Both the position numbers and the translations under genes were made by a program. Below, one piece after another: positions 6,001 through 64,000 of a stretch of DNA of 64,000 nucleotides; position 1 is the first letter of the stretch; every line of letters begins with the position of its first letter. The stretch lies in assembly GCF_009914755.1 (NCBI RefSeq), contig NC_060948.1; one strand, given 5' to 3'. Origin of the DNA: the human T2T-CHM13v2.0 reference genome, Homo sapiens. The notes beneath the pieces were generated by a model. It did no database searches. It worked only from the letters and a program-made list of their open reading frames with translations, and was not told the DNA's origin.

Positions 6001-9000
6001 AGGAATGGACTGGAACAAAAAGGAATCAAATGGACAGGAATGGAATGGAATGGACTCGAATGGAATGGAGTCAAATGCAAACGCATCGAATGGAATGGAT
6101 TCAAATGGAATGCAATTGAATGGAATAGAAAGGAAGAGAATGGAATTGAGAGTAATGGAAAGATATCGATTGGAATGAAATGGAATGGAAAGGAATTGAA
6201 TGGAAAGGAATGGACTCGAAAGAAATGGATTGGAATGGAATGGTCTCCAATGGAATGGACTGGAGTGGAATGGAATCGAATGGAAAGAAAAGAATGGAAC
6301 GGAATGGAACGGGAAGGAATAGAATGTTATGGAATCCGATTGGACAGAATGGAATGGAATGCAGTTTCATGAAATGGAGTCGAATAGAGTGGCATCAAAA
6401 GGAATGGAATGGAGTGGACTCAAAAGGAATGGACTCGAAAGGAATGGAGTCGAACCAAATTGAATCAAATGGATTGGATTCGAACAGAATGGAATGGAAT
6501 GGAATGAACTCGACTGGAGTAGAGAGGAATGAAAAGGAAAAGAATGGAATGTAATCAAATGGATTGCAAGTGAATGGAATCAAAAATAATAGAAAGGAAT
6601 GGAGTGTAAAGGGATGATATTGAATTAAATGGAATGGAATGGAATTTAATGGAATGGAGTCGAAGGAATAGACAGGAATGTAATGGACTCCAATGGAATG
6701 GAATGGATGAAAATGGATTTGAACAGATTGGAATAGAACGGAATCGAATGCAATGAAATGGAATGGACTCGATCAGAACGGACTGGAGAGGAATGTACAC
6801 AAATGGAATGGAAACGAAAGGAATGGAATGAAATGGAATGGAATGCAATGGAATTGAAAGGAACGGAATCAAATGGAATGGAATGGAATGGAATGGATTG
6901 GAATAGAATGGATTCAAATAAAATAGAATCGATTGCAATGGTATTGAATGGAAGGGACTTGAATGGAATGGAAAGCAATGGAAGATATTGGAATCGAATG
7001 GCATCGAATGAAATGGAATGGAACGGAATGGAACGGACCCGAATGGAATGGAATGGACTCAAATGTAATGGACTCGAATGGAATCGACTGAAATATAATA
7101 GACTCGAAAGGAATGGCCTCGAGCGGAATTTATTTGAATAGAATGGAATCAAATGGAATACAATAGTATGGAATGGAATCGAATGGAATGGAATCGAATG
7201 GAATGTAATCAAATGGAATGGAACGGAATTCAATATAATGGAGTAGAATGGAATGCATTGGAAAGGAGCACAGTGGAATCGAGTGGATTGGAATCGAGTG
7301 GAATGGAATCAAAGGGAACGAAATCGAATTGAATGGACTTGAATGGAATTGCGTCGAAAGGAATTGACTCGAAAGGAATGGACTGGAACAAAAAGGAATC
7401 AAATGGACAGGAATGGAATGGAATGGACTCGAATGGAATGGAGTCAAATGCAAACGCATCGAATGGAATGGATTCAAATGGAATGCAATTGAATGGAATA
7501 GAAAGGAAGAGAATGGAATTGAGAGTAATGGAAAGATATCGATTGGAATGAAATGGAATGGAAAGGAATTGAATGGAAAGGAATGGACTCGAAAGAAATG
7601 GATTGGAATGGAATGGTCTCCAATGGAATGGACTGGAGTGGAATGGAATCGAATGGAAAGAAAAGAATGGAACGGAATGGAACGGAAAGGAATAGAATGT
7701 TATGGAATCCGATTGGACAGAATGGAATGGAATGCAGTTTCATGAAATGGAGTCGAATAGAGTGGCATCAAAAGGAATGGAATGGAGTGGACTCAAAAGG
7801 AATGGACTCGAAAGGAATGGAGTCTAACCAAATTGAATCGAATGGATTGGAGTCGAACAGAATGGAATGGAATGGAATGAACTCGACTGGAGTAGAGAGG
7901 AATGAAAAGGAATAGAATGGAATGTAATCAAATGGATTGCAAGTGAATGGAATCAAAAATAATAGAAAGGAATGGAGTGTAAAGGGATGATATTCAATTA
8001 AATGGAATGGAACGGAATTTAATGGAATGGAGTCGAAGGAATGGACAGGAATGTAATGGACTCCAATGGAATGGAATGTATCAAAATGGATTTGAACAGA
8101 TTGGAATGGAACGGAATGGAATGCAATGAAATGGAATGGACTCGATCAGAACGGACTGGAGAGGAATGTACACAAATGGAATGGAAACGAATGGAATGCA
8201 ATGAAATGGAATGGAATGCAATGGAAGTGAAAGGAGCGGAATCAAATGGAATGGAATGGAATGGAATGGAATGGATTGGAATAGAATGAATTTAAATAAA
8301 ATAGAATCGATTGCAATGGTATTGAATGGAAGGGACTTGAATGGAATGGAAAGCAATGGAAGATATTGGAATCGAATGGCATCGAATGAAATGGAATGGA
8401 ACGGAATGGAACGGACCCGAATGGAATGGAATGGACTCAAATGTAATGGACTCGAATGGAATCGACTGAAATATAATAGACTCGAAATGAATGGCCTCGA
8501 GCGGAATTTATTTGAATAGAATGGAATCAAATGGAATACAATAGTATGGAATGGAATCGAATGGAATGGAATCGAATGGAATGTAATCAAATGGAATGGA
8601 ACGGAATTCAATATAATGGAGTAGAATGGAATGCATTGGAAAGGAGCAGAGTGGAATCGAGTGGATTGGAATCGAGTGGAATGGAATCAAAGGGAACGAA
8701 ATCGAATTGAATGGACTTGAATGGAATTGAGTCGAAAGGAATTGACTCGATAGGAATGGACTGGAACAAAAAGGAATCAAATGGACAGGAATGGAATGGA
8801 ATGGACTCGAATGGAATGGAGTCAAATGCAAACGCATCGAATGGAATGGATTCAAATGGAATGCAATTGAATGGAATAGAAAGGAAGAGAATGGAATTGA
8901 GAGTAATGGAAAGATATCGATTGGAATGAAATGGAATGGAAAGGAATTGAATGGAAAGGAATGGACTCGAAAGAAATGGATTGGAATGGAATGGTCTCCA

Positions 9001-12000
9001 ATGGAATGGACTGGAGTGGAATGGAATCGAATGGAAAGAAAAGAATGGAACGGAATGGAACGGAAAGGAATAGAATGTTATGGAATCCGATTGGACAGAA
9101 TGGAATGGAATGCAGTTTCATGAAATGGAGTCGAATAGAGTGGCATCAAATGAATGGAATGGAGTGGACTCAAAAGGAATGGACTCGAAAGGAATGGAGT
9201 CGAACCAAATTGAATCGAATGGATTGGAGTCGAACAGAATGGAATGGAATGGAATGAACTCGACTGGAGTAGAGAGGAATGAAAAGGAATAGAATGGAAT
9301 GTAATCAAATGGATTGCAAGTGAATGGAATCAAAAATAATAGAAAGGAATGGAGTGTAAAGGGATGATATTGAATTAAATGGAATGGAATGGAATTTAAT
9401 GGAATGGAGTCGAAGGAATGGACAGGAATGTAATGGACTCCAATGGAATAGAATGGATCAAAATGGATTTGAACAGATTGGAATCGAACGGAATGGAATG
9501 CAATGAAATGGAATGGACTCGATCAGAACGGACTGGAGAGGAATGTACACAAATGGAATGGAAACGAAAGGAATGGAATGAAGTGGAATGGAATGCAATG
9601 GAATTGAAAGCAACGGAATCAAATGGAATGGAATGTATTGGAATAGAATGGATTGGAATAGAATGGATTCAAATAAAATAGAATCGATTGCAATGGTATT
9701 GAATGGAAGGGTCTTGAATGGAATGGAAAGCAATGGAAGATATTGGAATTGAATGGCATCGAATGAAATGGAATGGAACGGAATGGAACGGACCCGAATG
9801 GAATGGAATGGACTCAAATGTAATGGACTCGAATGGAATCGACTGAAATATAATAGACTCGAAAGGAATGGCCTCGAGCGGAATTTATTTGAATAGAATG
9901 GAATCAAATGGAATACAATAGTATGGAATGGAATCCAATGGAATGGAATCGAATGGAATGTAATCAAATGGAATGGAATGGAATTCAATATAATGGAGTA
10001 GATTGGAATGCATTGGAAAGGAGCAGAGTGGAATCGAGTGGATTGGAATCGAGTGGAATGGAATCAAAGGGAACGAAATCGAATTGAATGGACTTGAATG
10101 GAATTGCGTCGAAAGGAATTGACTCGAAAGGAATGGACTGGAACAAAAAGGAATCAAATGGACAGGAATGGAGTGGAATGGACTCGAATGGAATGGAGTC
10201 AAATGCAAACGCATCGAATGGAATGGATTCAAATGGAATGCAATTGAATGGAATAGAAAGGAAGAGAATGGAATTGAGAGTAATGGAAAGCTATCGATTG
10301 GAATGAAATGGAATGGAAAGGAATTGAATGGAAAGGAATGGACTCGAAAGAAATGGATTGGAATGGAATGGTCTCCAATGGAATGGACTGGAGTGGAATG
10401 GAATCGAATGGAAAGAAAAGAATGGAACGGAATGGAACGGAAAGGAATAGAATGTTATGGAATCCGATTGGACAGAATGGAATGGAATGCAGTTTCATGA
10501 AATGGAGTGGAATAGAGTGGCATCAAAAGGAATGGAATGGAGTGGACTCAAAAGGAATGGACTCGAAAGGAATGGAGTCGAACCAAATTGAATCAAACGG
10601 ATTGGAGTCGAACAGAATGGAATGGAATGGAATGAACTCGACTGGAGTAGAGAGGAATGAAAAGGAATAGAATGGAATGTAATCAAATGGATTGCAAGTG
10701 AATGGAATCAAAAATAATAGAAAGGAATGGAGTGTAAAGGGATGATATTGAATTAAATGGAATGCAATGGAATTTAATGGAATGGAGTCGAAGGAATGGA
10801 CAGGAATGTAATGGACTCCAATGGAATGGAATGGATCAAAATGGATTTGAATAGATTGGAATGGAACGGAATGGAATGCAATGAAATAGAATGGACTCGA
10901 TCAGAACGGACTGGAGAGGAATGTACACAAATGGAATGGAAACGAAAGGAATGGAATGAAATGGAATGGAATGCAATGGAATTGAAAGCAACGGAATCAA
11001 ATGGAATGGAATGTATTGGAATAGAATGGATTGGAATAGATTGGATTCAAATAAAATAGAATCGATTGCAATGGTATTGAATGGAAGGGACTTGAATGGA
11101 ATGGAAAGCAATGGAAGATATTGCAATTGAATGGCATCGAATGAAATGGAATGGAACGGAATGGAACGGACCCGAATGGAATGGAATGGACTCAAATGTA
11201 ATGGACTCGAATGGAATCGACTGAAATATAATAGACTCGAAAGGAATGGCCTCGAGCGGAATTTATTTGAATAGAATGGAATCAAATGGAATACAATAGT
11301 ATGGAATGGAATCCAATGGAATGGAATCGAATGGAATGTAATCAAATGGAATGGAATGGAATTCAATATAATGGAGTAGATTGGAATGCATTGGAAAGGA
11401 GCAGAGTGGAATCGAGTGGACTGGAATCGAGTGGAATGGAATCAAAGGGAACGAAATCGAATTGAACGGACTTGAATGGAATTGAGTCGAAAGGAATTGA
11501 CTCGAAAGGAATGGACTGGAACAAAAAGGAATCAAATGGACAGGAATGGAATGGAATGGACTCGAATGGAATGGAGTCAAATGCAAACGCATCGAATGGA
11601 ATGGATTCAAATGGAATGCAATTGAATGGAATAGAAAGGAAGAGAATGGAATTGAGAGTAATGGAAAGATATCGATTGGAATGAAATGGAATGGAAAGGA
11701 ATTGAATGGAAAGGAATGGACTCAAAAGAAATGGATTGGAATGGAATGGTCTCCAATGGAATGGACTGGAGTGGAATGGAATCGAATGGAAAGAAAAGAA
11801 TGGAACGGAATGGAACGGAAAGGAATAGAATGTTATGGAATCCGATTGGACAGAATGGAATGGAATGCAGTTTCATGAAATGGAGTCGAATAGAGTGGCA
11901 TCAAAAGGAATGGAATGGACTGGATTCAAAAGGAATGGACTCGAAAGGAATGGAGTCGAACCAAATTGAATCAAATGGATTGGATTCGAACAGAATGGAA

Positions 12001-13649
12001 TGGAATGGAATGAACTCGACTGGGGTAGAGAGGAATGAAAAGGAATAGAATGGAATGTAATCAAATGGATTGCAAGTGAATGGAATCAAAAATAATAGAA
12101 AGGAATGGAGTGTAAAGGGATGATATTGAATTAAATGGAATGGAATGGAATTTAATGGAATGGAGTCGAAGGAATGGACAGGAATGTAATGGACTCCAAT
12201 GTAATGGAATGGATCAAAATGGATTTGAACAGATTGGAATCGAACGGAATGGAATGCAATGAAATGGAATGGACTCGATCAGAACGGACTGGAGAGGAAT
12301 GTACACAAATGGAATGGAAACGAAAGGAATGGAATGAAATGGAATGGAATGCAATGGAATTGAAAGGAACGGAATCAAATGGAATGGAATGGAATGGAAT
12401 GGATTGGAATAGAATGGATTCAAATAAAATAGAATCGATTGCAATGGTATTGAATGGAAGGGACTTGAATGGAATGGAAAGCAATGGAAGATATTGGAAT
12501 CGAATGGCATCGAATGAAATGGAATGGAACGGAATGGAACGGACCCGAATGGAATGGAATGGACTCAAATGTAATGGACTCGAATGGAATCGACTGAAAT
12601 ATAATAGACTCGAAAGGAATGGCCTCGAGCGGAATTTATTTGAATAGAATGGAATCAAATGGAATACAATAGTATGGAATGGAATCGAATGGAATGGAAT
12701 CGAATGGAATGTAATCAAATGGAATGGAACGGAATTCAATATAATGGAGTAGAATGGAATGCATTGGAAAGGAGCAGAGTGGAATCGAGTGGATTGGAAT
12801 CGAGTGGAATGGAATCAAAGGGAACGAAATCGAATTGAATGGACTTGAATGGAATTGCGTCGATAGGAATTGACTCGAAAGGAATGGACTGGAACAAAAA
12901 GGAATCAAATGGACAGGAATGGAATGGAATGGACTCGAATGGAATGGAGTCAAATGCAAACGCATCGAATGGAATGGATTCAAATGGAATGCAATTGAAT
13001 GGAATAGAAAGGAAGAGAATGGAATTGAGAGTAATGGAAAGATATCGATTGGAATGAAATGGAATGGAAAGGAATTGAATGGAAAGGAATGGACTCGAAA
13101 GAAATGGATTGGAATGGAATGGTCTCCAATGGAATGGACTGGAGTGGAATGTAATCGAATGGAAAGAAAAGAATGGAACGGAATGGAACGGAATGGAATA
13201 GAATGTTATGGAATCCGATTGGACAGAATGGAATGGAATGCAGTTTCATGAAATGTATTGGAATATAGTGGCATCAAAAGGAATGGAATGGAGTGGACTC
13301 AAAAGGAATGGACTCGAAAGGAATGGAGTCGAACCAAATTGAATCAAATGGATTGCAGTCGAACAGAATGGAATGGAATGGAATGAACTCGACTAGAGTA
13401 GAGAGGAATGAAAAGGAATAGAATGGAATGTAATCAAATGGATTGCAAGTGAATGGAATCAAAAATAATAGAAAGGAATGGAGTGTAAAGAGATGATATT
13501 GAATTAAATGGAATGGAATGGAATTTAATGGAATGGAGTCGAAGGAATGGACAGGAATGTAATGGACTCCAATGGAATGGAATGGATCAAAATGGATTTG
13601 AATAGATTGGAATGGAACGGAATGGAATGCAATGAAATGGAATGGACTC
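1..13649 (+). repeat. Tandem array of ~1.37-kb higher-order units (about 10 copies, continuing off the left edge)
   Basis: Landmark GATCAGAACGG at 1289, 2662, 4040, 5393, 6771, 8144, 9521, 10899, 12277, 13650 (spacings 1373, 1378, 1353, 1378, 1373, 1377, 1378, 1378, 1373). Landmark GCCTCGAGCGG at 261, 1634, 3012, 4380, 5743, 7116, 8494, 9871, 11249, 12622, 13995. The ORF track repeats with the same period. Confidence 0.95.
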
Positions 13650-16600
13650 GATCAGAACGGACTGGAGAGGAATGTACACAAATGGAATGGAAACGAAAGG
13701 AATGGAATGAAATGGAATGGAATGCAATGGAATTGAAAGGAACGGAATCAAATGGAATGGAATGGTATGGAATGGATTGGAATAGAATGGATTCAAATAA
13801 AATAGAATCGATTGCAATGGTATTGAATGGAAGGGACTTGAATGGAATGGAAAGCAATGGAAGATATTGGAATCGAATGGCATCGAATGAAATGGAATGG
13901 AACGGAATGGAACGAACCCGAATGGAATGGAATGGACTCAAATGTAATGGACTCGAATGGAATCGAATGAAATATAATAGACTCGATAGGAATGGCCTCG
14001 AGCGGAATTTATTTGAATAGAATGGAATGAAATGGAATACAATAGTATGGAATGGAATCGAATGGAATGGAATCGAATGGAATGTAATCAAATGGAATGG
14101 AACGGAATTCAATATAATGGAGTAGAATGGAATGCATTGGAAAGGAGCAGAGTGGAATCGAGTGGATTGGAATCGAGTGGAATGGAATCAAAGGGAACGA
14201 AATCGAATTGAACGGACTTGAATGGAATTGAGTTGAAAGGAATTGACTCGAAAGGAATGGACTGGAACAAAAAGGAATCAAATGGACAGGAATGGAATGG
14301 AATGGACTCGAATGGAGTGGAGTCAAATGCAAACGCATCGAATGGAATGGATTCAAATGGAATGCAATTCAATGGAATAGAAAGGAAGAGAATGGAATTG
14401 AGAGTAATGGAAAGATATCGATTGGAATGAAATGGAATGGAAAGGAATTGCATAGAAAGGAATGGACTGGAAAGAAATGGATTGGAATGGAATGCTCTCC
14501 AATGGAATGGACTGGATTGGAATGGAATCGAATGGAATGTAAAGAATGGAACGGAATGGAACGGAAAGGAATAGAATGTTATGGAATCCGATTGGACAGA
14601 ATGGAATGGAATGGAGTTTCATGAAATGGAGTCGAACAGAGTGGCATCAAAAGGAATGGAATGGAATGGAGTGGACTCAAAAGGAATGGACTCGAAAGGA
14701 ATGGAGTCGAACAGAATGGAATGGAATGGAATGAACTCGACTGGAGTAGAGAGGAATGTAAAGGAATAGAATGGAATGTAATCAAATGGATTGCAAGTGA
14801 ATGGAATCAAAAATAATAGAAAGGAATGGAGTGTAAAGAGATGATATTGAATAAAAGGGAATGGAATAGAATTTAATGGAATGGAGTCTCAGGAATGGAC
14901 AGGAATGTAATGGACTCCAATGGAATGGAATGGATCAAAATGGATTTGAACAGATTGGAATCGAACGCAATGGAATGCAATGGAATGGAATGGACTCGAA
15001 TGGAGAAGAGACAAATGGAATGGAAACGAATTCAATGGAATTGAAAAGAATAGAATGGAATGGCCTGTAATGGTAAGATACTAAATGGAATGGAATTGAA
15101 TGGAATGTAGTTTAATGGACCCAAATGTAATGCACTCGAATGGAATATACTGAAATAGAATGGAATCGAAAGGAAAGGTCTCAAATGGAATTTCTTCAAT
15201 ATAATGGAATCGAATGGAATGCAATAGAATGGAAAGGAATCGAATGTAATGGAATCAAATAGAATGGACCAGAATGGAATGGACTGCGATAGAACGTACT
15301 GCAGTGTAAAGGATTGAATTCTAATTCATTCAAATGGAATGGAATTGAATGGAATGGAATCCAATGGAATGGATAGGATTGTACTGGAATGGAATAGCAT
15401 GGAATGCAACGGAGTGGAATGGAGTTGAATGAAGTGGAATGGAATCGATTGGAATGGAATCAAATGGAATGGACGGGAATGGAATGGACTGGAAGAGAAC
15501 AGACTCGAATATAATGGATTGCAATGTAATTGATTGAAATGGAATGGAATCAAATGGAATGTAATAAAATTGAAGGGATTGGAGTTCAATGCAATGAAAT
15601 AGAATGGAATGCAAAGGAAAGGAAAGGCACGGAGTGAAATCGAGTGTAATGGAATCGAATGGAATGAAATCGAATGGAATGGACTCAAAAGAAATGGACG
15701 AGGGACAAAACGGAATCGAACTGTTTGGAATCGAATGGAACGGAATGGAATGGAATGGTCTCCATTGGATGGGAGTAGAACGGATTGGAATGAAATGGAA
15801 TGGAAAGGAATAGAATGGAATGGAAAGGAATGGAAGGTAATGGAAAGATATCGAACGGATTGGAAAGGAATGGAATGGACGCTAATGGAATGGAGTGAAA
15901 TTCAACAGAAACGAATGGAATGGACAGGAGTGAAATGGAGTCGAATGTAATTGACTGGAGAGGAATGGGCTCGAAAGGAATGGACTCAAATAGAATGGAC
16001 TGGAATGGATTGTACTCGAATGGAGTGGAAAGGAATAAAATGGATTCCACCAGATTGGAATGGAACAGAATGTAATGGAATGGAATGGAATGCAATGGAA
16101 TGGCTCGAATGGAATGGAGTCGAATGCAATGGAAGAGAAAGGAAAGGAATTGGATGGAATTGAAAGTAATAGAATGAAATGGAGTGCAAAGGAAAGATAT
16201 CGAATGGAATGGATCGAAAAGAAATAGAATGGAATTGACAGGAATGGAATGGAATAGAATGGAATAGACTGGCGTGAAATGAAAACGAATGGAATGGAAA
16301 CGAATGGAATGGAATGGAAAGGAATGGAGTAGAATAAATACTATGGAATGGAATGGAATGGAATGGAATGGAGGCGAAAGGAAAAGAATGGATTGGAATG
16401 TCACCGAATGGAAAGATATGGAATGGAAAGGAATGGATACGAATGGAATGGAATAGAAAGGAACGGAAAGGTAAAGAATGGAATGGAATCGGATAGAATG
16501 GAATGCAATGTAATGGAGTCGAATGGAAAATAATCGAGTAGAATGATATCGAATGGAATGGAATGGAATGGACTCGAATGGAATGTACTCAAATGGATTA

Positions 16601-19160
16601 GAATAGAATGGAATGGAACTAAACGTAATGAACTCGAATGGAATGGACACAAATAGAATGGAAGAGAAAGGAATGGTATTGAATGGAATTTATTCGAATA
16701 GAATGGAATTCAATGGAATGCAACAGTGTGGCATGGAATCAAATGGAATGGAATCGAATGGAATGGACCCGAGTGGAATGGACTCACATAGAACAGCCTC
16801 GAATGTAATGGATGACAATGTATTAGATTCGAAAGGACTGAAATCGAATGGAATGTAATCAAATAGAACGGAATTGAATGCATGGAATGGCATAGAAAGT
16901 AATGCAATGGAATGGAATAGACTGGAATGGAATGGAATCGGATGGAATGTAATGAAATGTAATGGAAGGAATGCCATGGAATGGAATGGAATGGAATGCA
17001 ATGGCCCGGTGTATAATGGAGTGCAATGGATTTCAGTGGAATGTAGTCAAAAGGAATGAAATAGAATGGAATTCAATATAATGGAATGGCATCCAATGGC
17101 AAGGAATGGAGCGGACTCCAATGGAAACGACATGAAAGGAATATAATATAATGGAATGGCATTGAACGAAATGGAATGCAATGGGGTTAAAAGGTAAAAT
17201 ATCGAATGGAAAAGAATTGAATGGACTCGAATGGAATATAATGGAATGGAATGGTCTCGAATGGAATGTACTAGAGTTGAATGGAATCGAATGGAATGGA
17301 AAACAATGGAAAGGAAAGGAAGGGAATTGAAAGGAAAGGAATAGAATGGAATGGAATCGGATGGAACAGAATTGAATGGAATGGAAACTAAAGGAATAGA
17401 ATAGAAAGCAATGGCATTGAATGGAATGGAAATGAATGGAATCAGATGGAACAGAAAGGAATGGAATGGCATCGAATGGATTGGAATGGAATGTAATGGA
17501 ATGGAATGGAAAGGAATGGAATGGACTCAAATGGAATGTACTCAAATGGAATAGAATAGAATGGAATAGAAGTAAATATAATGGACTCGAGAGGAATGGA
17601 TTGGAATAAATTGGAATTGAATGTATTGGATTCGAATGGAAAGGAATGGAATGGAATGGAATGGAATGGATTCGAATGGAATGGAACGAATTGGAATGTA
17701 ATTGAATGGAGTCGAAAACAGTAGAAAGAAAAGAAGTTTAATCGAATGATATCGAATGGAATTGAATGGAATGTACGCGAATGGAATGGACTGGAATGGA
17801 ATGGAATGACATACAATGGAATCGAAAGGATTGGAATCGAATGAAATGGAATTGAATGGAATACAAAAGAATAGAAAGGAATGGAGTTTAATGGAAAGAT
17901 ATTAAAGGTAATGGAATGGAATTGAGTGGACACAAATGGAAAGGACTGGAATGGAAAGGACTCGAATGAAATGGACCGCATTAGAATGGACTCGAATGGA
18001 ACGGATTGGTGTGGAATGATCTCGAATGGATTGGAAACGAATGGAATGGAAAAGAATAGAATGGAATGTAATCAAATGGAACGAAATGTAATGGAATGGA
18101 TTCGACTGGAACAGAATTGAATGGAGTGGAGTGGAATGGAATGGAATGCAATCGAATGGAATGGACACGAATGGAATAGAATGAAATGAAATGGCATAGA
18201 ATGGAATGGAATCAATCGAATGGAATGGAATGGAATGGAATGGAATGGAATGGAATGGAATGGATGGAATGGAATGGCATGGAATGGAATGGAATGGCAT
18301 GGAATGAAATTTATTGGAATGGGATGGGCCCAAAAGTAATGGACTCAAATAAAAGGGACTCAAATAGAATGAATTGTAAAGAAACGGTCTCGAATGTAAT
18401 TTCTTTGAATAGAATGATATTGAACGGAATGCAATAGTATGGAATGGTATCGAATAGAATGGAATGGAATGGAACGGAATGGAGTGCATTTGAACGGACT
18501 CAAATGCAATAAATTGCAATATAATTGATTCAAATGGAATGAAATCGAATAGAATGTAAACAAATGGAATGGAAGGCAATGCAATGGAAAGGAATCGAAT
18601 GAAATGGAATAAATGGGATGGAATCGAATGGAAAGGACGCGAATATAATGGACTGTTAAGGAAAGGTCTCGAATCGAATTTATTCCAATAGAATGGAATC
18701 GAATGGAATGCAATACTATTGAATCGAATCGAATGGAATGGAATTGAATGGAATGGACAGGAATGGAATGAACTGGAAGTGAATGGACAAGAACGTAATA
18801 TACTGCAATGTAATTTATTCAAATGGAATGGAAAGCAATCGAATGGAATGGACGCGATTGCAATGGACTGGAGTGGAATGGACTGAAATGGAATGGAAAC
18901 GAATGTAATGGAATGGAACGGAAAGCAAAGGAATCTACCGGAATGGAATCGAACGGAACAGAAAGGAATGGAATAGAATGGAGTGGAATGGACTCGAATG
19001 GAATGTATTCGAATGTAATGGACCTGAAAGGAATGTAATCCAATGGAATGGAATGGAATGGAATCAAAAGGAATAGAAAGGAATAGAGTGTAATTGAATG
19101 ATATCGAATGGAAGGGAATGGAATGAACTCGAATGGAATGCACTGGAATGGAATGGACTC
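13650..19160 (+). repeat. 5.5-kb HOR unit U1 (5511 bp), boundary unit; first ~600 bp are of 1.37-kb type
   Basis: Lies between GATCAG landmarks. Carries the 1.37-kb-type variant GAACGGACTTG at ~14210 and the 5.5-kb-type GAATGGAGTGGAGTC at ~14310. Confidence 0.88.
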
Positions 19161-22100
19161 GATCAGAACGGACTGGAGAGGAATGTACACAAATGGAATG
19201 GAAACGAATGGAATGGAATGCAATGGAATTGAAAGGAACGGAATCAAATGGAATGGAATGGAATGGAATGGATTGGAATAGAATGGATTCAAATAAAATA
19301 GAATCGATTGGAATGGTATTGAATGGAAGGGACTTGAATGGAATGGAAAGCAATGGAAGATATTGGAATCGAATGGCATCGAATGAAATGGAATGGAACG
19401 GAATGGAACGGACCCGAATGGAATGGAATGGACTCAAATGGAATGGACTCGAATGGAATCGACTGAAATATAATAGACTCGAATGGAATGGCCTCGAGCG
19501 GAATTTATTTGAATAGAATGGAATCAAATGGAAAACAATAGTATGGAATGGAATGGAATCGAATGGAATGTAATCAAATGGAATGGAACGGAATTCAATA
19601 TAATGGAGTAGAATGGAATGCATTGGAAAGGAGCAGAGTGGAATCGAGTGGATTGGAATCGAGTGGAATGGAATCAAAGGGAACGAAATCGAATTGAATG
19701 GACTTGAATGGAATTGAGTGGAAAGGAATTGACTCGAAAGGAATGGACTGGAACAAAAAGGAATCAAATGGACAGGAATGGAATGGAATGGACTCGAATG
19801 GAGTGGAGTCAAATACAAACGCATCGAATGGAATGGATTCAAATGGAATGCAATTCAATGGAATAGAAAGGAAGAGAATGGAATTGAGAGTAATGGAAAG
19901 ATATCGATTGGAATGAAATGGAATGGAAAGGAATTGCATGGAAAGGAATGGACTCGAAAGAAATAGATTGGAATGGAATGGTCTCCAATGGAATGGACTG
20001 GAGTGGAATGGAATCGAATGGAATGAAAAGAATGGAACGGAATGGAACGGAAAGGAATAGAATGTTATGGAATCCGATTGGACAGAATGGAATGGAATGG
20101 AGTTTCATGAAATGGAGTCGAATACAGTGGCATCAAAAGAAATGGAATGGAATGGAGTGGACTCAAAAGGAATGGACTCGAAAGGAATGGAGTCGAACAG
20201 AATGGAATGGAATGGAATGAACTCGACTGGAGTAGAGAGGAATGTAAAGGAATAGAATGGAATGTAATCAAATGGATTGCAAGTGAATGGAATCAAAAAT
20301 AATAGAAAGGAATGGAGTGTAAAGGGATGATATTGAATAAAATGGAATGGAATGGAATTTAATGGAATGGAGTCTCAGGAATGGACAGGAATGTAATGGA
20401 CTCCAATGGAATGGAATGGATCAAGATGGATTTGAACAGATTGGAATCGAACGGAATGGAATGCAATGGAATGGAATGGACTCGAATGGAGAAGAGACAA
20501 ATGGAATGGAAACGAATTCAATGGAATTGAAAAGAATAGAATGGAATGGCCTGTAATGGTAAGATACTAAATGGAATGGAATTGAATGGAATGTAGTGGA
20601 ATGGACGCAAATGTAATGCACTCGAATGGAATATACTCAAATAGAATGGAATCGAAAGGAAAGGTCTCAAATGGAATTTATTCAATACAATGGAATCGAA
20701 TGGAATGCAATAGAATGGAAAGGAATCGAATGTAATGGAATCAAATAGAATGGACCAGAATGGAATGGACTGCCATAGAACGGACTGCAGTGTAAAGGAT
20801 TGAATTCAAATTCATTCAAATGGAATGGAATTGAATGGAATGGAATCCAATGGAATGGATAGGATTGTACTGGAATGGAATAGCATGGAATGCAACGGAG
20901 TGGAATGGAGTTGAATGAAGTAGAATGGAATCGATTGGAATGGAATCAAATGGAATGGACGGGAATGGAATGGACTGGAAGAGAACAGACTCGAATATAA
21001 TGGATTGTAATGTAATTGATTCAGATGGAATGGAATCGAATGGAATGTAATAAAATTGAAGGGATTGGAGTCCAATGCAATGAAATAGAATGGAATGCAA
21101 AGGAAAGGAAAGGCACGGAGTGAAATCGAGTGTAATGGAATCGAATGGAATGAAATCGAATGGAATGGACTCAAAAGAAATGGACGAGGGACAAAACGGA
21201 ATCGAACTGATTGGAATCGAATGGAACGGAATGGAATGGAATGGTCTCCATTGGATGGGAGTAGAACGGATTGGAATGAAATGGAATGGAAAGGAATAGA
21301 ATGGAATGGAAAGGAATGGAAGATAATGGAAAGATATCGAACGGATTGGAAAGGAATGGAATGGACGCTAATGGAATGGAGTGGAATTCAACAGAAACGA
21401 ATGGAATGGACTGGAGTGAAATGGAGTCGAATGTAATTGACTGGAGAGGAATGGGCTCGAAAGGAATGGACTCGAATAGAATGGACTGGAATGGATTGTA
21501 CTCTAATGGAGTGGAAAGGAATAAAATGGATTCCACCAGATTGGAATGGAACAGAATGTAATGGAATGGAATGGAATGGAATGGAATGGCACGAATGGAA
21601 TGGAGTCGAATGCAATGGAAGAGAAAGGAAAGGAATTGGATGGAATTGAAAGTAATAGAATTAAATAGAGCGCAAAGGAAAGATATCGAATGGAATGGAT
21701 CGAAAAGAAATAGAATGGAATGGACAGGAATGGAATGGAATAGAATGGAATAGACTGGCGTGAAATGAAAACGAATGGAATGGAAACGAATGGAATGGAA
21801 TGGAAAGGAATGGAGTAGAATAAATACTATGGAATGGAATGGAATGGAATGGAGGCGAAAGGAAAAGAATGGATTGGAATGTCACCGTATGGAAAGATAT
21901 GGACTGGAAAGGAATGGATACGAATGGAATGGAATAGAAAGGAACGGAAAGGTAAAGAATGGAATGGAATCGGATAGAATGGAATGCAATGTAATGGAGT
22001 CGAATGGAAAATAATCGAGTAGAATGATATCGAATGGAATGGAATGGAATGGAATGGACTCGAATGGAATGTACTCAGATGGATTAGAATAGAATGGAAT

Positions 22101-24668
22101 GGAACTAAACGTAATGAACTCGAATGGAATGGACACAAATAGAATGGAAGAGAAAGGAATGGTATTGAATGGAATTTATTCGAATAGAATGGAATTCAAT
22201 GGAATGCAACAGTGTGGCATGGAATCAAATGGAATGGAATCGAATGGAAAGGACCCGAGTGGAATGGACTCACATAGAACAGCCTCGAATGTAATGGATG
22301 ACAATGTATTAGATTCGAAAGGACTGAAATCGAATGGAATGTAATCAAATAGAACGGAATTGAATGCATGGAATGGCATAGAAAGTAATGCAATGGAATG
22401 GAATAGACGGCAATGGAATGGAATCGGATGGAGTGTAATGAAATGTAATGGAAGGAATGCCATGGAATGGAATGGAATGGAATGCAATGGGACGGTGTAT
22501 AATGGAGTGCCATGGATTTCAGTGGAATGCAGTCAAAAGGAATGAAATAGAATGGAATTCAATATAATGGAATGGCATCCAATGGCAAGGAATGGAGCAG
22601 ACTCCAGTGGAAACGACAAGAAAGGAATATAATATAATGGAATGGCATTGAACGAAATGGAATGCAATGGAGTTAAAAGGTAAAATATCGAAAGGAAAAG
22701 AATTGAATGGACTCGAATGGAATATAATGGAATGGAATGGATTCGAATGGAATGTACTAGAGTTGTATGGAATCGAATGGAATGGAAAACAATGGAAAGG
22801 AAAGGAAGGGAATTGAAAGGAAAGGAATAGAATAGAATGGAATCGGATGGAACAGAATTAAATGGAATGGAAATTAAAGGAATAGAATAGAAAGGAATGG
22901 CATTGAATGGAATGGAAATGAATGGAATCAGATGGAACAGAAAGGAATGGAATAGAATCGAATGGAATGGCAACGAATGGATTGGAATGGAATGTAATGG
23001 AATGGAATGGAAAGGAATGGAATGGACTCAAATGGAATGTACTCAAATGGAATAGAATAGAATGGAATGGAAGTAAATATAATGGACTCGAGTGGAATGG
23101 ATTGGAATAAATTGGAATTGAATGTATTGGATTCGAATGGAAAGGAATGGAATGGAATGGAATGGAATGGAATGGATTCGAGTGGAATGGAACGAATTGG
23201 AATGTAATTGAATGGAGTCGAAAACAGTAGAAAGAAATAAAGTATAATCGAATGATATCGAATGGAATTGAATGGAATGTACGCAAATGGAATTGACTGG
23301 AATGGAATGGAATGACATGTAATGGAATCGAAAGGAATGGAATCGAATGAAATGGAATTGAATGGAATAGAAAGGAATAGAATGGAATGGAGTTTAATGG
23401 AAAGATATTAAAAGTAATGGAATGGAATTGAGTGGACACAAATGGAATGGACTGGAATGGAAAGGACTCGAATGAAATGGAGCGCATTAGAATGGACTCG
23501 AATGGAACGGATTGGTGTGGAATTGTCTCGAATGGATTGGAAACGAATGGAATGGAAAAGAATAGAATGGAATGTAATCAAATGGAACGAAATGGAATGG
23601 AATGGATTCGACTGAAACAGAATTAACTGGAGTGGAATTGAATGGAATGGAATGCAATCGAATGGAATGGACACGAATGGAATAGAATGAAATGAAATGG
23701 CATAGAATGGAATGGAATGGAATGGAATGGAATGGAATGGAATGGAATGGAATGGAATGGAATGCATTGGAATGGAATGGAATGGCATGGCATGGAATGG
23801 AATGGCATGGAATGAAATGGATTGGAATGGAATGGGTCCAAAAGTAATGGACTCAAATAAAAGGGACTGAAATAGAATGAATTGTAAAGAAACGGTCTCG
23901 AATGTAATTTATTCGAATAGAATGATATTGAATGGAATGCGATAGTGTAGAATGGTATCGAATAGAATGGAATGGAATGGAACGGAATGGAGTGCATTTG
24001 AACGGACTCAAATGCAATAAATTGCAATATAATTGATTCAAATGGAATGAAATCGAATAGAATGTAAACAAATGGAATGGAAGGCAATGCAATGGAAAGG
24101 AATCGAATGAAATGGAATAAATGGGATGGAATCGAATGGAAAGGACGCGAATATAATGGACTGTTAAGGAAAGGTCTCGAATCGAATTTATTCCAATAGA
24201 ATGGAATCGAATGGAATGCAATACTATTGAATCGAATCGAATGGAATGGAATTGAATGGAATGGACAGGAATGGAATGAACTGGAAGTGAATGGACAAGA
24301 ACGTAATATATTGCAATGTAATTTATTCAAATGGAATGGAAAGCAATCGAATGGAATGGACGCGATTGCAATGGACTGGAGTGGAATGGACTGAAATGGA
24401 ATGGAAACGAATGCAATGGAATGGAAAGGAAAGCAAAGGAATCTACCCGAATGGAATCGAACGGAACAGAAAGGAATGGAATAGAATGGAGTGGAATGGA
24501 CTCGAATGGAATGTATTTGAATGTAATGGACCTGAAAGGAATGTAATCCAATGGAATGGAATTGAATGGAATCAAAAGGAATAGAAAGGAATAGAGTGTA
24601 ATTGAATGATATCGAATGGAAGGGAATGGAATGAAGTCGAATGGAATGCACTGGAATGGAATGGACTC
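19161..24668 (+). repeat. 5.5-kb HOR unit U2 (5508 bp)
   Basis: Landmark spacing. Shares private variants with U3 (GAAATAAAGTATAATCG, GGAGCGCATTAG, GGGTCCAAAAG). Confidence 0.9.
23705..23764 (+). repeat. Perfect (GAATG)12 microsatellite tract
   Basis: 60 bp of uninterrupted pentamer after GAAATGGCATA. Homologous tracts in other units differ in length. Confidence 0.9.
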
Positions 24669-27600
24669 GATCAGAACGGACTGGAGAGGAATGTACACAA
24701 ATGGAATGGAAACGAATGGAATGGAATGAAATGGAATTGAAAGGAACGGAATCAAATGGAATGGAATGGAATGGAATGGATTGGAATAGAATGGATTCAA
24801 ATAAAATAGAATCGATTGGAATGGTATTGAAAGGAAGGGACTTGAATGGAATGGAAAGCAATGGAAGATATTGGAATCTAATGGCATCGAATGAAATGGA
24901 ATGGAACGGAATGGAACGAACCCGAATGGAATAGAATGGACTCAAATGTAATGGACTCGAATGGAATCGACTGAAATATAATAGACTCGAAAGGAATGGC
25001 CTCGAGCGGAATTTATTTGAATAGAATGGAATCAAATGGAAAACAATAGTCTGGAATGGAATGGAATCGAATGGAATGTAATCAAATGGAATGGAACGGA
25101 ATTCAATATAATGGAGTAGAATGGAATGCATTGGAAAGGAGCAGAGTGGAATCGAGTGGATTGGAATCGAGTGGAATGGAATCAAAGGGAACGAAATGGA
25201 ATTGAATGGACTTGAATGGAATTGAGTGGAAAGGAATTGACTCGAAAGGAATGGACTGGAACAAAAAGGAATCAAATGGACAGGAATGGAATGGAATGGA
25301 CTCGAATGGAGTGGAGTCAAATGCAAACGCATCGAATGGAATGGATTCAAATGGAATGCAATTCAATGGAATAGAAAGGAAGAGAATGGAATTGAGAGTA
25401 ATGGAAAGATATCGATTGGAATGAAATGGAATGGAAAGGGATTGCATGGAAAGGAATGGACTCGAAAGAAATGGATTGGAATGGAATGGTCTCCAATGGA
25501 ATGGACTGGAGTGGAATGGAATCGAATGGAATGAAAAGAATGGAACGGAATGGAACGGAAAGGAATAGAATGTTATGGAATCCGATTGGACAGAATGGAA
25601 TGGAATGGAGTTTCATGAAATGGAGTCGAATAAAGTGGCATCAAAAGAAATGGAATGGAATGGAGTGGACTCAAAAGGAATGGACTCGAAAGGAATGGAG
25701 TCGAACAGAATGGAATGGAATGGAATGAACTCGACTGGAGTAGAGAGGAATGTAAAGGAATAGAACGGAATGTAATCAAATGGACTGCAAGTGAATGGAA
25801 TCAAAAATAATAGAAAGGAATAGAGTGTAAAGGGATGATATGGAATAAAATGGAATGGAATGGAATTTAATGGAATGGAGTCTCAGGAATGGACAGGAAT
25901 GTAATGGACTCCAATGGAATGGAATGGATCAAAATGGATTTGAACAGATTGGAATCGAACGCAATGGAATGCAATGGAATGGAATGGACTCGAATGGAGA
26001 AGAGACAAATGGAATGGAAACGAATTCAATGGAATTGAAAAGAATAGAATGGAATGGCGAGTAATGGTAAGATACTAAATGGAATGGAATTGAATGGAAT
26101 GTAGTGAAATGGACGCAAATGTAATGCACTCGAAAGGAATATACTCAAATAGAATGGAATCGAAAGGAAAGGTCTCAAATGGAATTTATTCAATACAATG
26201 GAATCGAATGGAATGCAATAGAATGGAAAGGAATCGAATGTAATGGAATCAAATAGAATGGACCAGAATGGAATGGACTGCCATAGAACGGACTGCAGTG
26301 TAAAGGATTGAATTCTAATTCATTCAAATGGAATGGAATTGAATGGAATGGAATCCAATGGAATGGATAGGATTGTACTGGAATGGAATAGCGTGGAATG
26401 CAACGGAGTGGAAAGGAGTTGAATGAAGTGGAATGGAATCGATTGGAATGGAATCAAATGGAATGGACGGGAATGGAATGGACTGGAAGAGAACAGACTC
26501 GAATATAATGGATTGCAATGTAATTGATTCAAATGGAATGGAATCGATTGGAATGTAATAAAATTGAAGGGATTGGAGTTCAATGCAATGAAATAGAATG
26601 GAATGCAAAGGAAACGAAAGGCACGGAGTGAAATCGAGTGTAATGGAATCGAATGGAATGAAATCGAATGGAATGGACTCAAAAGAAATGGACGAGGGAC
26701 AAAACGGAATCAAACTGATTGGAATCGAATGGAACGGAATGGAATGTAATGGTCTCCATTGGATGGGAGTAGAACGGATTGGAATGAAATGGAATGGAAA
26801 GGAATAGAATGGAATGGAAAGGAATGGAAGGTAATGGAAAGATATTGAACGGATTGGAAAGGAATGGAATGGACGCTAATGGAATGGAGTGGAATTCAAC
26901 AGAAACGAATGGAATGGACTGGAGTGAAATGGAGTCGAATGTAATTGACTGGAGAGGAAGGGGCTCGAAAGGAATGGACTCGAATAGAATGGACTGCAAT
27001 GGATTGTACTCGAATGGAGTGGAAAGGAATAAAATGGATTCCACGAGATTTGAATGGAACAGACTGAAATGGAATGGAATGGAATGCAATGGAATGGCTC
27101 GAATGGAATGGAGTCGAATGCAATGGAAGAGAAAGGAAAGGAATTGGACAGAATTGAAAGTAATAGAATTAAATGGAGTGCAAAGGAAAGATATCGAATG
27201 GAATGGATCGAAAAGAAGGAGAATGGAATGCACAGGAATGGAATGTAATAGAATGGAATAGACTGGCGTGCAATGAAAACGAATGGAAGGGAAACGAATG
27301 GAATGGAATGGAAAGGAATGGAGTAGAATAAATACTATGGAATGGAATGGAATGGAATGGAATGGAATGGAGGCAAAAGGAAAAGAATGGATTAGAATGT
27401 CACCGAATGGAAAGATATGGAATGGAAAGGAATGGATACGAATGGAATGGAATAGAAAGGAACGGAAAGGTAAAGAATGGAATGGAATAGGATAGAATGG
27501 AATGCTATGTAATGGAGTCGAATGGAAAATAATCGAGTAGAATGATATCGAATGGAATGGAATGGAATGGAATGGACTCGAATGGAATGTACTCAAATGG

Positions 27601-30165: not shown

Positions 30166-30703
30166 GATCAGAACGGACTGGAGAGGAATGTACAGAAATG
30201 GAATGGAAACGAATGGAATGAAAAGAATGGAACGGAATGGAATGGAAAGGAATAGAATGTTATGGAATCCGATTGAACAGAATGGAATGGAATGCAGTTT
30301 CATGAAATGGAGTCGAATATAGTGGCATCAAAAGGAATGGAATGGAGTGGACTCAAAAGGAATGGACTCGAAAGGAATGGAGTCGAACCAAATTGAATCA
30401 AATGGATTGGAGTCGAACAGAATGGAATGGAATGGAATGAACTCGACTGGAGTAGAGAGGAATGTAAAGGAATAGAATGGAATGTAATCAAATGGATTGC
30501 AAGTGAATGGAATCAAAAATAATAGAAAGGAATGGAGTGTAAAGGGATGATATTGAATTAAATGGAATGGAATGGAATTTAATGGAATGGAGTCGAAGGA
30601 ATGGACAGGAATGTAATGGACTCCAATGGAATGGAATGGATCAAAATGGATTTGAACAGATTGGAATCGAACGGAATGGAATGCAATGAAATGGAATGGA
30701 CTC
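30166..30703 (+). repeat. 538-bp internally deleted 1.37-kb-type monomer embedded in the 5.5-kb array
   Basis: Two GATCAGAACGG landmarks only 538 bp apart. The sequence jumps at ~30,210-30,220 from ...GGAAACGAATGGAATG to AAAAGAATGGAACGG and ends in the 1.37-kb-type junction GCAATGAAATGGAATGGACTCGATCAG. Confidence 0.88.
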
Positions 30704-63927: not shown

Positions 63928-64000
63928 GATCAGAACGGACTGGAGAGGAATGTACACAAATGGAATGGAAACGAATGGAATGGAATGAAATGGAATGGAA

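What the first reader, a model, noticed from the sequence alone, without database searches (positions are those of the whole stretch)
12900..19200. Birth of a new satellite repeat: the 1.37-kb unit is a microhomology-joined sub-segment of the 5.5-kb HOR
Seen: the 5.5-kb unit has two near-identical ~29-bp sites, GGAATGCAATGGAATGGAATGGACTCGA|ATGGAGAAGAGAC (ends ~14,999) and GGAATGCACTGGAATGGAATGGACTCGA|TCAGAACGG (ends ~19,162). Every 1.37-kb unit joins the left flank of the first site (GATTTGAACAGATTGG...) directly to the right flank of the second (TCAGAACGGACTGGAGAGG), skipping ~4.16 kb (15,000-19,162). Inference: one ectopic recombination or template switch (tandem duplication or an excised 1.37-kb circle) made the junction, which was then amplified at least 10 times. 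The short units look more homogeneous than the long ones, so they are probably younger. This is the strongest candidate for an undescribed system in the window.
Basis: partly seen in the sequence, partly recalled or inferred. Interest (0 to 1): 0.8.

Follow-up and report, generated by a model that had tools for sequence, protein, structure and literature searches.

The report
Deletion-derived 1.37-kb satellite unit, chrY
Within the human Y chromosome's pericentromeric GGAAT satellite, a 1.37-kb repeat unit arose once from the 5.5-kb unit by loss of 4.16 kb between two short matching sites and then grew into a block of about 200 kb, which is a clear but ordinary example of how satellite arrays remodel themselves.

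Summary
The 5.5-kb unit has two 32-bp sites with one mismatch, ending at 14,999 and 19,162. All 10 short-array junctions in the window, plus one more at 30,705, join the left flank of the first site to the right flank of the second, skipping 4,163 bp.

The wider picture changes the story:
- The window shows only the right edge of a ~206-kb island of ~146 short units (chrY 11.960-12.166 Mb). There is also a ~9-unit patch at 11.914-11.927 Mb. Both lie inside a larger array of 5.5-kb units, which become 7.6-kb units further out.
- The junction 27-mer occurs 113 times in the genome, all in chrY 11.916-12.183 Mb.
- All but one junction share one crossover and one private substitution (144 A, one T), so the origin was single.
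- Deletion of the long unit is favoured over insertion, on four lines of evidence: rooting on the 7.6-kb units, pentamer polarity, island topology and pre-existing direct repeats.
- "Young because more homogeneous" is not supported. Short units differ by ~2%, while neighbouring long-unit blocks differ by 0-0.9%. The family probably predates modern Y lineages.

This is ordinary satellite dynamics. I found no description of it in print, and it is not a new system.

The parts
1..13651 (+). Right-hand end of the short-unit array: one partial unit (1-1290) and nine full units of 1353-1378 bp, starting at 1291, 2664, 4042, 5395, 6773, 8146, 9523, 10901 and 12279
   Evidence: The array continues leftwards to chrY 11,959,747.
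13620..13651 (+). Last copy of the hybrid junction tract J: the A-type left part, carrying the private G>A (…GCAATGAAATGGAATGGACTCGA), followed at 13652 by TCAGAACGG. The same tract ends at 1290, 2663, 4041, 5394, 6772, 8145, 9522, 10900 and 12278.
13652..14999 (+). Shared segment of the first long unit. It is a mosaic: short-like states at alignment columns 46-427 and long-like states from column 956 onwards, so it is a recombinant boundary unit.
14968..14999 (+). Site A, the left-hand direct repeat. The deletion breakpoint lies within its last 19 bp (14981-14999).
15000..19162 (+). The 4,163-bp long-unit-specific segment that every short unit lacks
19131..19162 (+). Site B, the right-hand direct repeat, followed at 19163 by TCAGAACGGACTGGAGAGG
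13652..63929 (+). Nine long units of 5491-5586 bp, starting at 13652, 19163, 24671, 30706, 36197, 41692, 47233, 52769 and 58344. A tenth starts at 63930. They fall into two subgroups, units 1-5 and units 6/7-9.
30168..30705 (+). P, a 538-bp truncated short unit lying inside the long array. It matches short-consensus positions 1-42 plus 878-1373, so it has an internal 835-bp deletion. It ends in a J junction with the private A, but keeps the long-unit state (T) at alignment column 1212.

Best explanation
The window lies in the pericentromeric HSat3 ((GGAAT)n-derived) array of Yq, the region called DYZ17. The ancestral repeat here is a long unit of 5.5 kb, or 7.6 kb further distally.

Origin (inferred). 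One long unit lost 4,163 bp between two direct repeats, site A and site B, which share 32 bp with one mismatch. The crossover fell in the last 19 identical bases. On a male-specific, non-recombining chromosome this must have been an intrachromatid or sister-chromatid event. Candidate mechanisms are single-strand annealing or microhomology-mediated end joining after a break, a replication template switch, or an unequal sister exchange. The event left two shared segments next to each other, separated only by the junction.

Amplification (inferred). Unequal sister-chromatid exchange between adjacent 1.37-kb segments then expanded the short unit in place. Later duplications of blocks of 2-6 units added more. 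The result is ~146 units (206 kb) plus a ~9-unit patch. Exchanges with long units made mosaic units at the array edges.

Shown directly: the anatomy, the single junction type, the restriction to one locus, the mosaic edge units and the block duplications. Inferred: the direction (deletion), the molecular mechanism and the age. The array is non-coding satellite DNA, and no cellular function is implied.
For: Structure:
- The short unit is collinear with the long unit. Both consensus sequences are 1373 bp and differ by 9 substitutions and 2 pentamer indels.
- The junction homology of 19 bp exact is beyond chance: P = 0.0004 for random breakpoints.

Single origin:
- Of 146 junction-type sites in the 304 kb held, 144 have the private A, one has T and one is a different junction.
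- Two substitutions separate 144 of 144 short units from 20 of 20 long units; a third, the private junction base, separates 142 of 144 from 20 of 20.
- The short units form one clade, 144 of 144, with support 0.75.

One locus: the 113 exact hits of the junction 27-mer all lie in chrY 11.9155-12.1827 Mb (100 listed, and the other 13 sort after 12,147,812). The A marker has 57 hits, all listed on chrY. The B marker has 169 hits, and the 100 listed start on the last contig.

Island topology: long units lie on both sides and one is embedded.

Direction:
- Rooted on the 7.6-kb units, the short clade nests among long units.
- Group distances: S to the 5.5-kb groups 2.7-3.1%, 5.5-kb groups to each other 2.5-2.9%, and everything to the 7.6-kb units 3.8-4.6%.
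- At the 3 diagnostic sites that can be polarised by the canonical pentamer, the short state is the deviant one in 3 of 3.
- At 9 of the 11 tabulated diagnostic columns the 7.6-kb units carry the common long-unit state. At the other two (143 and 1135) they match the short units and some long units, and the left-flank and right-distal long units differ.
- Sites A and B, with G at the private position, already exist in the 7.6-kb units.

Amplification by block duplication: the nearest relative of a unit usually lies 2-6 units away, the median nearest-neighbour distance is 0.66%, and the local best lags are 2, 3, 4 and 6.

Edge mosaics.
Against: - The root is assumed (most distant units, roughly clock-like). 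No other species or other human Y could be examined, so an insertion polarity is not formally excluded.
- Branch supports are moderate (0.61-0.87), and recombinant units blur the tree.
- The short units are not more homogeneous than the long-unit blocks.
- The junction alone is symmetrical between a deletion and an insertion mediated by 32 bp of homology.
- Only 334 kb of the array of at least 750 kb was read. The remainder is known from marker coordinates only, and the tool lists only the first 100 places.
- Rolling-circle amplification followed by homologous reintegration would leave the same edges.
Confidence: 0.8

Rival explanations
1. Reverse polarity. The 1.37-kb unit is ancestral, and the 5.5-kb unit arose when 4.16 kb of other HSat3 sequence was inserted at the junction by a homology-mediated template switch. 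The long unit then spread.
For: The junction anatomy (one hybrid copy against two flanking copies of a 32-bp tract) reads equally well in either direction. The short array's internal diversity of 1.98% is as large as or larger than that of most long-unit blocks.
Against: - Long units occupy both flanks and at least 0.5 Mb more. They include the most divergent units, the 7.6-kb type, which already carry both sites.
- The short clade nests inside long-unit diversity under distance or clock rooting.
- The short-specific states depart from the canonical pentamer at 3 of 3 sites that can be polarised.
- The J-private base is A in the short units but G in site A of all 18 long units shown and in both 7.6-kb units.
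Confidence: 0.08
2. Same deletion junction, different amplification. The 1.37-kb segment was excised as a circle (site A x site B recombination gives a circle, or its complement). It was multiplied by rolling-circle replication and reinserted by homologous recombination into the array.
For: - Pairwise differences among short units are unimodal around 2%.
- Divergence rises only weakly with distance: 1.83% at lag 1 against 2.01% at lag 16. This is compatible with an early burst.
- The array edges are in register, as homologous reintegration would give.
Against: - A x B recombination within one unit would excise the 4.16-kb segment, not the 1.37-kb segment. A 1.37-kb circle carrying J needs a second step.
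- Recent growth is clearly by local duplication of blocks of 2-6 units.
- The array centre is the most homogeneous (1.1-1.4%) and the edges the least (2-2.4%), as in layered in-place expansion.
- No circle data were available.
Confidence: 0.1
3. Assembly artefact. The short block is a mis-assembly (collapse or false expansion) of the satellite in this reference.
For: None from the sequence. Satellite arrays are generally the hardest regions to assemble. DYZ17 is excluded from variant calling in population studies (PMC13252187, passages).
Against: - Units differ by ~2% and carry many unit-specific variants.
- There is an orderly internal structure of sub-blocks, mosaic edges, an embedded diverged long unit and a unique second junction. 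A collapse or a duplication artefact would not create these.
Confidence: 0.02

Closest known systems
Structural variants of alpha-satellite higher-order repeats (units that gain or lose monomers by unequal exchange and then spread locally within one array)
   Same: A shorter unit that is a collinear subset of the parent unit. One shared junction. It lies inside the parent array in the same orientation, expands in place by integer blocks and is most homogeneous in the centre. De novo integer-unit gains and losses of this kind are documented in pedigrees (PMC12240836, passages).
   Different: In alpha satellite the crossover is in register between paralogous ~171-bp monomers. Here the 5.5-kb unit has no internal 1.37-kb sub-period: self-alignment gives 68-70% identity at every offset. 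The exchange used only 19-32 bp of fortuitous identity, one of ~260 repeat pairs of 19 bp or more in the unit.
DYZ1 / HSat3A6 on Yq12 (3.6-kb nested tandem repeat derived from the CATTC pentamer)
   Same: A Y-specific HSat3 array with a kilobase-scale nested unit that evolves by unequal exchange (Rhie et al. preprint 10.1101/2022.12.01.518724, passages; PMC4022460, passages).
   Different: A different locus (pericentromeric Yq, not Yq12), different unit sequences and different lengths. Here three nested unit lengths (7.6, 5.5 and 1.37 kb) coexist in one array.
DYZ17, and probably the Y-specific subfamily HSat3A3 of Altemose et al. 2014
   Same: The position next to the Y centromere on the q arm, a GGAAT-based sequence and marker motifs found only on chrY.
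   Different: The passages I could read give only array sizes (858 kbp-1.74 Mbp; preprint 10.1101/2022.12.01.518658). None describes internal unit lengths. Equating this array with HSat3A3 is my inference. The consensus file of Altemose 2022 was not available.
Smith-type unequal-crossover model of tandem-repeat evolution (recalled, not from a call)
   Same: It predicts the emergence and local fixation of new period lengths, block duplications and recombinant edge units, all of which are seen here.
   Different: It is a general model, not a family. The founding step here needs a short-homology deletion rather than an in-register exchange.

Membership tests
Human satellite 3 (HSat3) | Sequence derived from tandem GGAAT/CATTC pentamers, strongly strand-asymmetric | tested here: met
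   Tandem Repeats Finder gives periods of 10, 15 and 35 bp (multiples of 5) over 12-64,000, with consensus AATGGAATGG. Array samples have 60-63 GGAAT per kb against 0.3 ATTCC per kb.
DYZ17 / Y-specific HSat3 array | Located on proximal Yq beside the centromere, with sequence specific to the Y | tested here: met
   The hub places the window at chrY:12.15-12.22 Mb. The A marker (57 of 57 listed) and the J 27-mer are confined to chrY 11.75-12.51 Mb, and the B marker's listed hits start on the last contig. The literature places DYZ17 there.
DYZ17 / HSat3A3 subfamily assignment | Match to the published subfamily consensus or its subfamily-specific k-mers | not testable with these tools
   The consensus file and the review are not held. 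The name HSat3A3 comes from PMC4022460 passages. Assigning this array to it is an inference.
Deletion-derived unit-length variant of a satellite repeat | The variant unit is a collinear subset of the parent unit, with no foreign sequence | tested here: met
   Both consensus sequences are 1373 bp. The differences are 9 substitutions plus two 5-bp indels.
Deletion-derived unit-length variant of a satellite repeat | One junction shared by all copies (single origin) | tested here: met
   Of 146 junctions, 144 have the private A, one has T and one is the unique J2 junction.
Deletion-derived unit-length variant of a satellite repeat | The parent form is older, so the variant nests within parent diversity | tested here: inconclusive
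   Nested when rooted on the 7.6-kb units, with supports 0.75-0.87. Distances agree, as does pentamer polarity at 3 of 3 sites. No true outgroup was available.
Alpha-satellite-type HOR variant (in-register monomer exchange) | The crossover is between paralogous sub-repeats of the parent unit | tested here: not met
   There is no 1.37-kb sub-period in the 5.5-kb unit. Identity is 68-70% at all offsets, and the 1375-bp bin is at background level.
eccDNA / rolling-circle amplified satellite | Circular intermediates, a star-like burst and no local block structure | tested here: inconclusive
   The pairwise distribution is unimodal, but nearest relatives lie at lags of 2-6 units. Circles cannot be tested here.
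Transposon-borne or dispersed repeat | Copies at several unlinked loci | tested here: not met
   All 113 hits of the junction 27-mer lie in one 270-kb interval of chrY, on one strand.

The most novel reading that the evidence does not exclude
The DYZ17 array keeps a readable step-by-step record of how a satellite unit is born, with the intermediates still in place:
- A series of unit lengths, 7.6 kb to 5.5 kb to 1.37 kb, each step bounded by short homology.
- A diverged 'parental-type' long unit stranded inside the short array. It carries the short-like states up to alignment column 1135 and the long-like states at 1212, 1306 and 1441.
- A truncated early short unit (P, window 30168-30705) that has the junction but lacks one of the three fixed substitutions.
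- A second, never-amplified junction (J2).

If these are true intermediates and not later recombinants, the order of events can be reconstructed on a non-recombining chromosome whose genealogy is known. Rates of satellite unit birth, spread and loss could then be measured directly across the published Y assemblies.
Probability: 0.35. Interest if true: 0.5.

Novelty: new member of a known kind. Interest (0 to 1): 0.3.

Why it matters
It gives a fully resolved, single-origin case of a new satellite period arising by a short-homology deletion and expanding to ~200 kb on a chromosome that exchanges only with its sister chromatid. The junction 27-mer is a specific marker found at this one locus. 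It could be counted in any male genome to follow expansion and contraction of this block across the Y phylogeny.

It does not reveal a new mechanism or a functional element. It also shows that 'more homogeneous means younger' is unreliable inside arrays, because old unit types can be re-homogenised locally.

Tried and rejected
- The 5.5-kb unit as an old tetramer of 1.37-kb units (5.5/1.373 = 4.0), which would make sites A and B paralogous positions. Rejected: self-alignment gives 68-70% identity at every offset, with nothing special near 1375, 2750 or 4125. The k-mer offset peaks near 1325-1350 and 4675-4700 match the offsets I worked out for P against the shared segments of the neighbouring long units (my arithmetic, not a separate test), and the 1375 bin is at background.
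- A general 4-unit super-period in the short array that matches the long-unit length. Seen locally: units S0 and S4 differ by 0.2%, and lag 4 is best in 3 of the 10 overlapping 24-unit blocks examined. Other blocks prefer lags 1, 2, 3 or 6.
- Error-prone repair at the junction as the cause of the clustered fixed substitutions. Five of six diagnostic changes are transversions, but 460 of 766 variant alleles in the array are transversions too (P = 0.23). The clustering remains unexplained.
- Reciprocal product (B-left joined to A-right). Not present at site A of any of the 18 long units shown. I did not search the whole genome for it, because that would need a joined string.
- The junction 27-mer in other collections, as a proxy for other individuals through human contamination: 0 hits in genome contigs and 0 in viral contigs.
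- Altemose 2022 review (DOI look-up): not held.
- Literature searches for a description of the internal structure of DYZ17 returned array sizes and names only. The searches were 'DYZ17', 'classical revival' / 'human satellite DNAs', 'pericentric long arm region' / 'Y chromosome' / '5 bp satellite' and HSat3 with Y chromosome and higher-order repeat.
- The bioRxiv supplements of the two Y-assembly preprints are closed and may contain such a description.
Full report
**What is in the window**

The whole window is HSat3. Tandem Repeats Finder reports pentamer-based periods from 12 to 64,000 with consensus AATGGAATGG. On top of this lie two long periods. Distances from each 24-mer to its next copy peak at 1378 and 1373 (3614 and 3034 cases) and at 5486-5590. 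The 1.37-kb period fills 1-13,651 and the 5.5-kb period fills 13,652-64,000.

Taking TCAGAACGG as the unit start, there are:
- one partial and nine full short units of 1353-1378 bp;
- nine long units of 5491-5586 bp, with the start of a tenth;
- one odd 538-bp piece at 30,168-30,705.

- Site A ends at 14,999 and site B at 19,162.
- They share GAATGGAATGCA[A/C]TGGAATGGAATGGACTCGA, which is 32 bp with one mismatch. The last 19 bp are exact.
- All 10 short-array junctions in the window, plus the one ending the 538-bp piece, read site-A left flank | site-B right flank. They skip 15,000-19,162, or 4,163 bp.
- Every junction carries the A-type base at the mismatch, so the crossover lay within the last 19 bp.
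- Every junction also carries a private G>A (…CAATGAAATGG…) that is absent from both parental sites.
- A 5.5-kb unit contains roughly 260 repeat pairs of 19 bp or more. Even so, only 0.042% of 165,587 random breakpoint pairs had that much homology.

So the join was guided by homology. The tract itself is just one of many available in pentamer-derived sequence.

**Wider context**

- The window shows only the right edge of a short-unit island running from chrY 11,959,747 to 12,165,652. That is about 146 units, interrupted by a single long unit at 11,991,346-11,996,932.
- Marker coordinates show a second patch of about nine short units at 11,914,161-11,926,518, separated from the island by six long units.
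- Long units of ~5.5-5.6 kb run from about 11.754 Mb on the left to about 12.31 Mb on the right. Beyond that the site-A marker is spaced ~7.6 kb apart, out to at least 12.507 Mb.
- The 7.6-kb unit is the 5.5-kb unit plus ~2.05 kb at one point, again bounded by ~11-13 bp of shared sequence.
- The junction 27-mer occurs 113 times in the 3.1-Gb genome. All hits are on the + strand between chrY 11,915,506 and 12,182,683, and the backwards control gives none.
- All 57 hits of the site-A marker are on chrY. The site-B marker has 169 hits, and its listed ones start on the last contig.

**Single origin**

In the 304 kb held there are 146 junction-type sites. Of these, 144 have the private A and one has T. 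One, at chrY 11,998,305, is a different junction (J2), and it is unique in the genome.

I aligned 144 short units with the shared segments of 20 long units. One double-length unit and the 538-bp piece were left out. Two columns separate 144 of 144 short units from 20 of 20 long units. The junction-private base separates 142 of 144 from 20 of 20. The short units form one clade in a FastTree tree, with support 0.75.

The short and long consensus sequences are both 1373 bp. They differ by 9 substitutions and two 5-bp indels, so the short unit contains nothing that the long unit lacks.

**Direction: deletion or insertion**

The junction anatomy alone fits either direction. Four observations favour deletion.

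1. Rooting. With the tree rooted on the most distant units (the 7.6-kb type), the short clade nests among long units. Its sister is the embedded long unit (0.87), followed by one window unit (0.85).
2. Distances. Short units lie 2.7-3.1% from the 5.5-kb subgroups. These subgroups lie 2.5-2.9% from one another, and all lie 3.8-4.6% from the 7.6-kb units.
3. Polarity.
   - At the three diagnostic sites where the canonical GGAAT pentamer indicates the ancestral state, the short state is the deviant one in 3 of 3.
   - At 9 of the 11 tabulated diagnostic columns the 7.6-kb units carry the common long-unit state.
4. Pre-existing repeats. Sites A and B, with G at the private position, are already present in the 7.6-kb units.

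Long units also flank the island on both sides. The limits are that the root is assumed, the supports are moderate, recombinant units exist, and no other Y chromosome or ape could be examined.

**Age and homogeneity**

- Inside the window the short units look somewhat more uniform: 1.60% against 2.66% over all pairs. The gap is small for adjacent units (1.76% against 2.06%) and for long-unit subgroups (2.0% and 1.42%).
- Over the whole island the mean pairwise difference is 1.98% and adjacent units differ by 1.83%.
- The long-unit blocks on both sides are much tighter: 0-0.6% on the left and 0.1-0.9% on the right-distal side in the 4.16-kb segment.
- Short units average 1.06% from their own consensus.
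- I converted this to time using published per-generation rates (PMC12240836, passages): 1.17e-8 for autosomes, 1.0e-7 for centromeres and 3.86e-7 for Yq12 satellite. My arithmetic, assuming ~29 years per generation, gives roughly 26, 3 and 0.8 million years.

Even at the fastest rate the family is older than the ~180,000 years spanned by sequenced human Y lineages (preprint 10.1101/2022.12.01.518658, abstract). So it is a derived unit, but not a recent birth. Homogeneity here reflects local re-amplification, not the age of a unit type.

**How it spread**

- A unit's nearest relative usually lies 2-6 units away. The median nearest-neighbour distance is 0.66%.
- Local best lags are 2, 3, 4 or 6 units.
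- The centre of the island is the most uniform (1.1-1.4%) and its edges the least (2-2.4%).
- The first short unit on the left is long-like in its 5' part. The first long unit on the right (window 13,652-14,999) is short-like in its 5' part.

This pattern is what unequal sister-chromatid exchange and block duplication in place would produce. A rolling-circle episode cannot be excluded, but nothing requires one.

**Possible relics**

- The embedded long unit is short-like up to alignment column 1135 and long-like at 1212, 1306 and 1441. Its 4.16-kb segment lies 2.5-3.6% from every other long unit sampled. It is therefore old: either a stranded parental-type unit or an old recombinant.
- The 538-bp piece P is a short unit lacking consensus positions 43-877. 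It has the junction and its private A, but keeps the long state at column 1212. It may be an early branch.
- All three fixed substitutions lie within 240 bp to the left of the junction. I could not explain this clustering. The substitution spectrum is not unusual.

**Comparison with what is known**

- The region is DYZ17, the HSat3-type array next to the Y centromere (preprint 10.1101/2022.12.01.518724, passages).
- Its size varies from 858 kbp to 1.74 Mbp among men (preprint 10.1101/2022.12.01.518658, passages).
- It is usually excluded from variant calling (PMC13252187, passages).
- A Y-specific subfamily, HSat3A3, was reported in 2014 (PMC4022460, passages). That this array is HSat3A3 is my inference.
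- None of the passages I read describes the 7.6, 5.5 and 1.37-kb organisation.
- The Altemose 2022 review, which holds the DYZ17 consensus, was not available, and the preprints' supplements are closed. I therefore cannot say that the organisation is unpublished.

The process itself is the classical behaviour of satellites and alpha-satellite higher-order repeats: a unit-length variant forms by deletion and spreads locally by unequal exchange. The one difference is that the founding exchange was not in register between paralogous sub-repeats.

**Verdict**

The core interpretation (a single homology-guided deletion derivative, later amplified) is well supported, at about 0.8. The claims of 'young' and 'undescribed system' are not supported. 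Interest is modest. The junction 27-mer is a useful marker specific to this one locus for population studies of this block.

Noticed in passing
L013:6253-6305 (chrY 11,998,253-11,998,305; outside the window): A second junction type, J2. The site-A left flank runs up to …CAGATTGG and is joined to the last 41 bp of the long-specific segment (the left side of site B), followed by TCAGAACGG. It is unique in the genome at up to 2 mismatches. It sits one short unit to the right of the embedded long unit. It could be an independent deletion or a template switch from a site-B donor.
   Followed up: partly
L012:9346 to L013:4932 (chrY 11,991,346-11,996,932): A single 5,587-bp long unit embedded in the short array. 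Its shared segment is short-like up to alignment column 1135 and long-like after that. Its 4.16-kb segment lies 2.5-3.6% from all 17 other long units compared.
   Followed up: partly
L034:2415-4469 and L035 (chrY 12.35 and 12.50 Mb): Distal units are ~7.6 kb. They equal the 5.5-kb unit plus ~2.05 kb inserted or retained at about position 4200 of the long unit, with ~11-13 bp of shared sequence at the breakpoints. Site-A marker spacing changes from ~5.5 kb to ~7.6 kb near 12.31 Mb.
   Followed up: partly
chrY 11,914,161-11,926,518 (marker coordinates only, not read): A second patch of about nine short units, separated from the main island by six long units. It is inferred from the spacing of B-marker and junction 27-mer hits.
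   Followed up: partly
window 1-6772: The partial unit 1-1290 and the unit at 5395-6772 differ by only 0.2%, which indicates a recent four-unit (5.49-kb) block duplication. Elsewhere in the island the preferred block size is 2, 3, 4 or 6 units.
   Followed up: yes
L025 (chrY 12,113,865 and 12,119,177): Two copies of an 1183-bp short-unit variant lie 5,312 bp apart. This is a ~190-bp internal deletion carried along by a four-unit block duplication.
   Followed up: no
short-unit consensus positions 1133, 1227 and 1357 (for example window 13,411-13,651): All three fixed short-versus-long substitutions lie within 240 bp to the left of the junction. Six of the seven fixed or near-fixed differences lie in the last 410 bp of the unit. 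The cause is unknown: perhaps a chimeric founder unit, perhaps repair-associated mutation.
   Followed up: partly
window 26224-26693: Tandem Repeats Finder reports a 205-bp period (2.3 copies, 78% matches) inside the third long unit. I did not check whether the other long units share it.
   Followed up: no
L029-L030 and L009 (chrY 11,937,600-11,959,746): The left-flank long units alternate in an 11-kb (two-unit) super-period. Their shared segments are identical at lag 2 (0.00%), which makes them far more homogeneous than the short array.
   Followed up: partly
L033 (chrY 11,600,001-11,610,000): This stretch is not HSat3 (1.4 GGAAT per kb). The GGAAT array that contains the window therefore starts somewhere between 11.61 and 11.754 Mb.
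   Followed up: no
whole short array (alignment of 144 units): Variant alleles are rich in transversions (460 transversions against 306 transitions, each site and allele counted once). Part of this may come from pentamer-shift misalignment.
   Followed up: no
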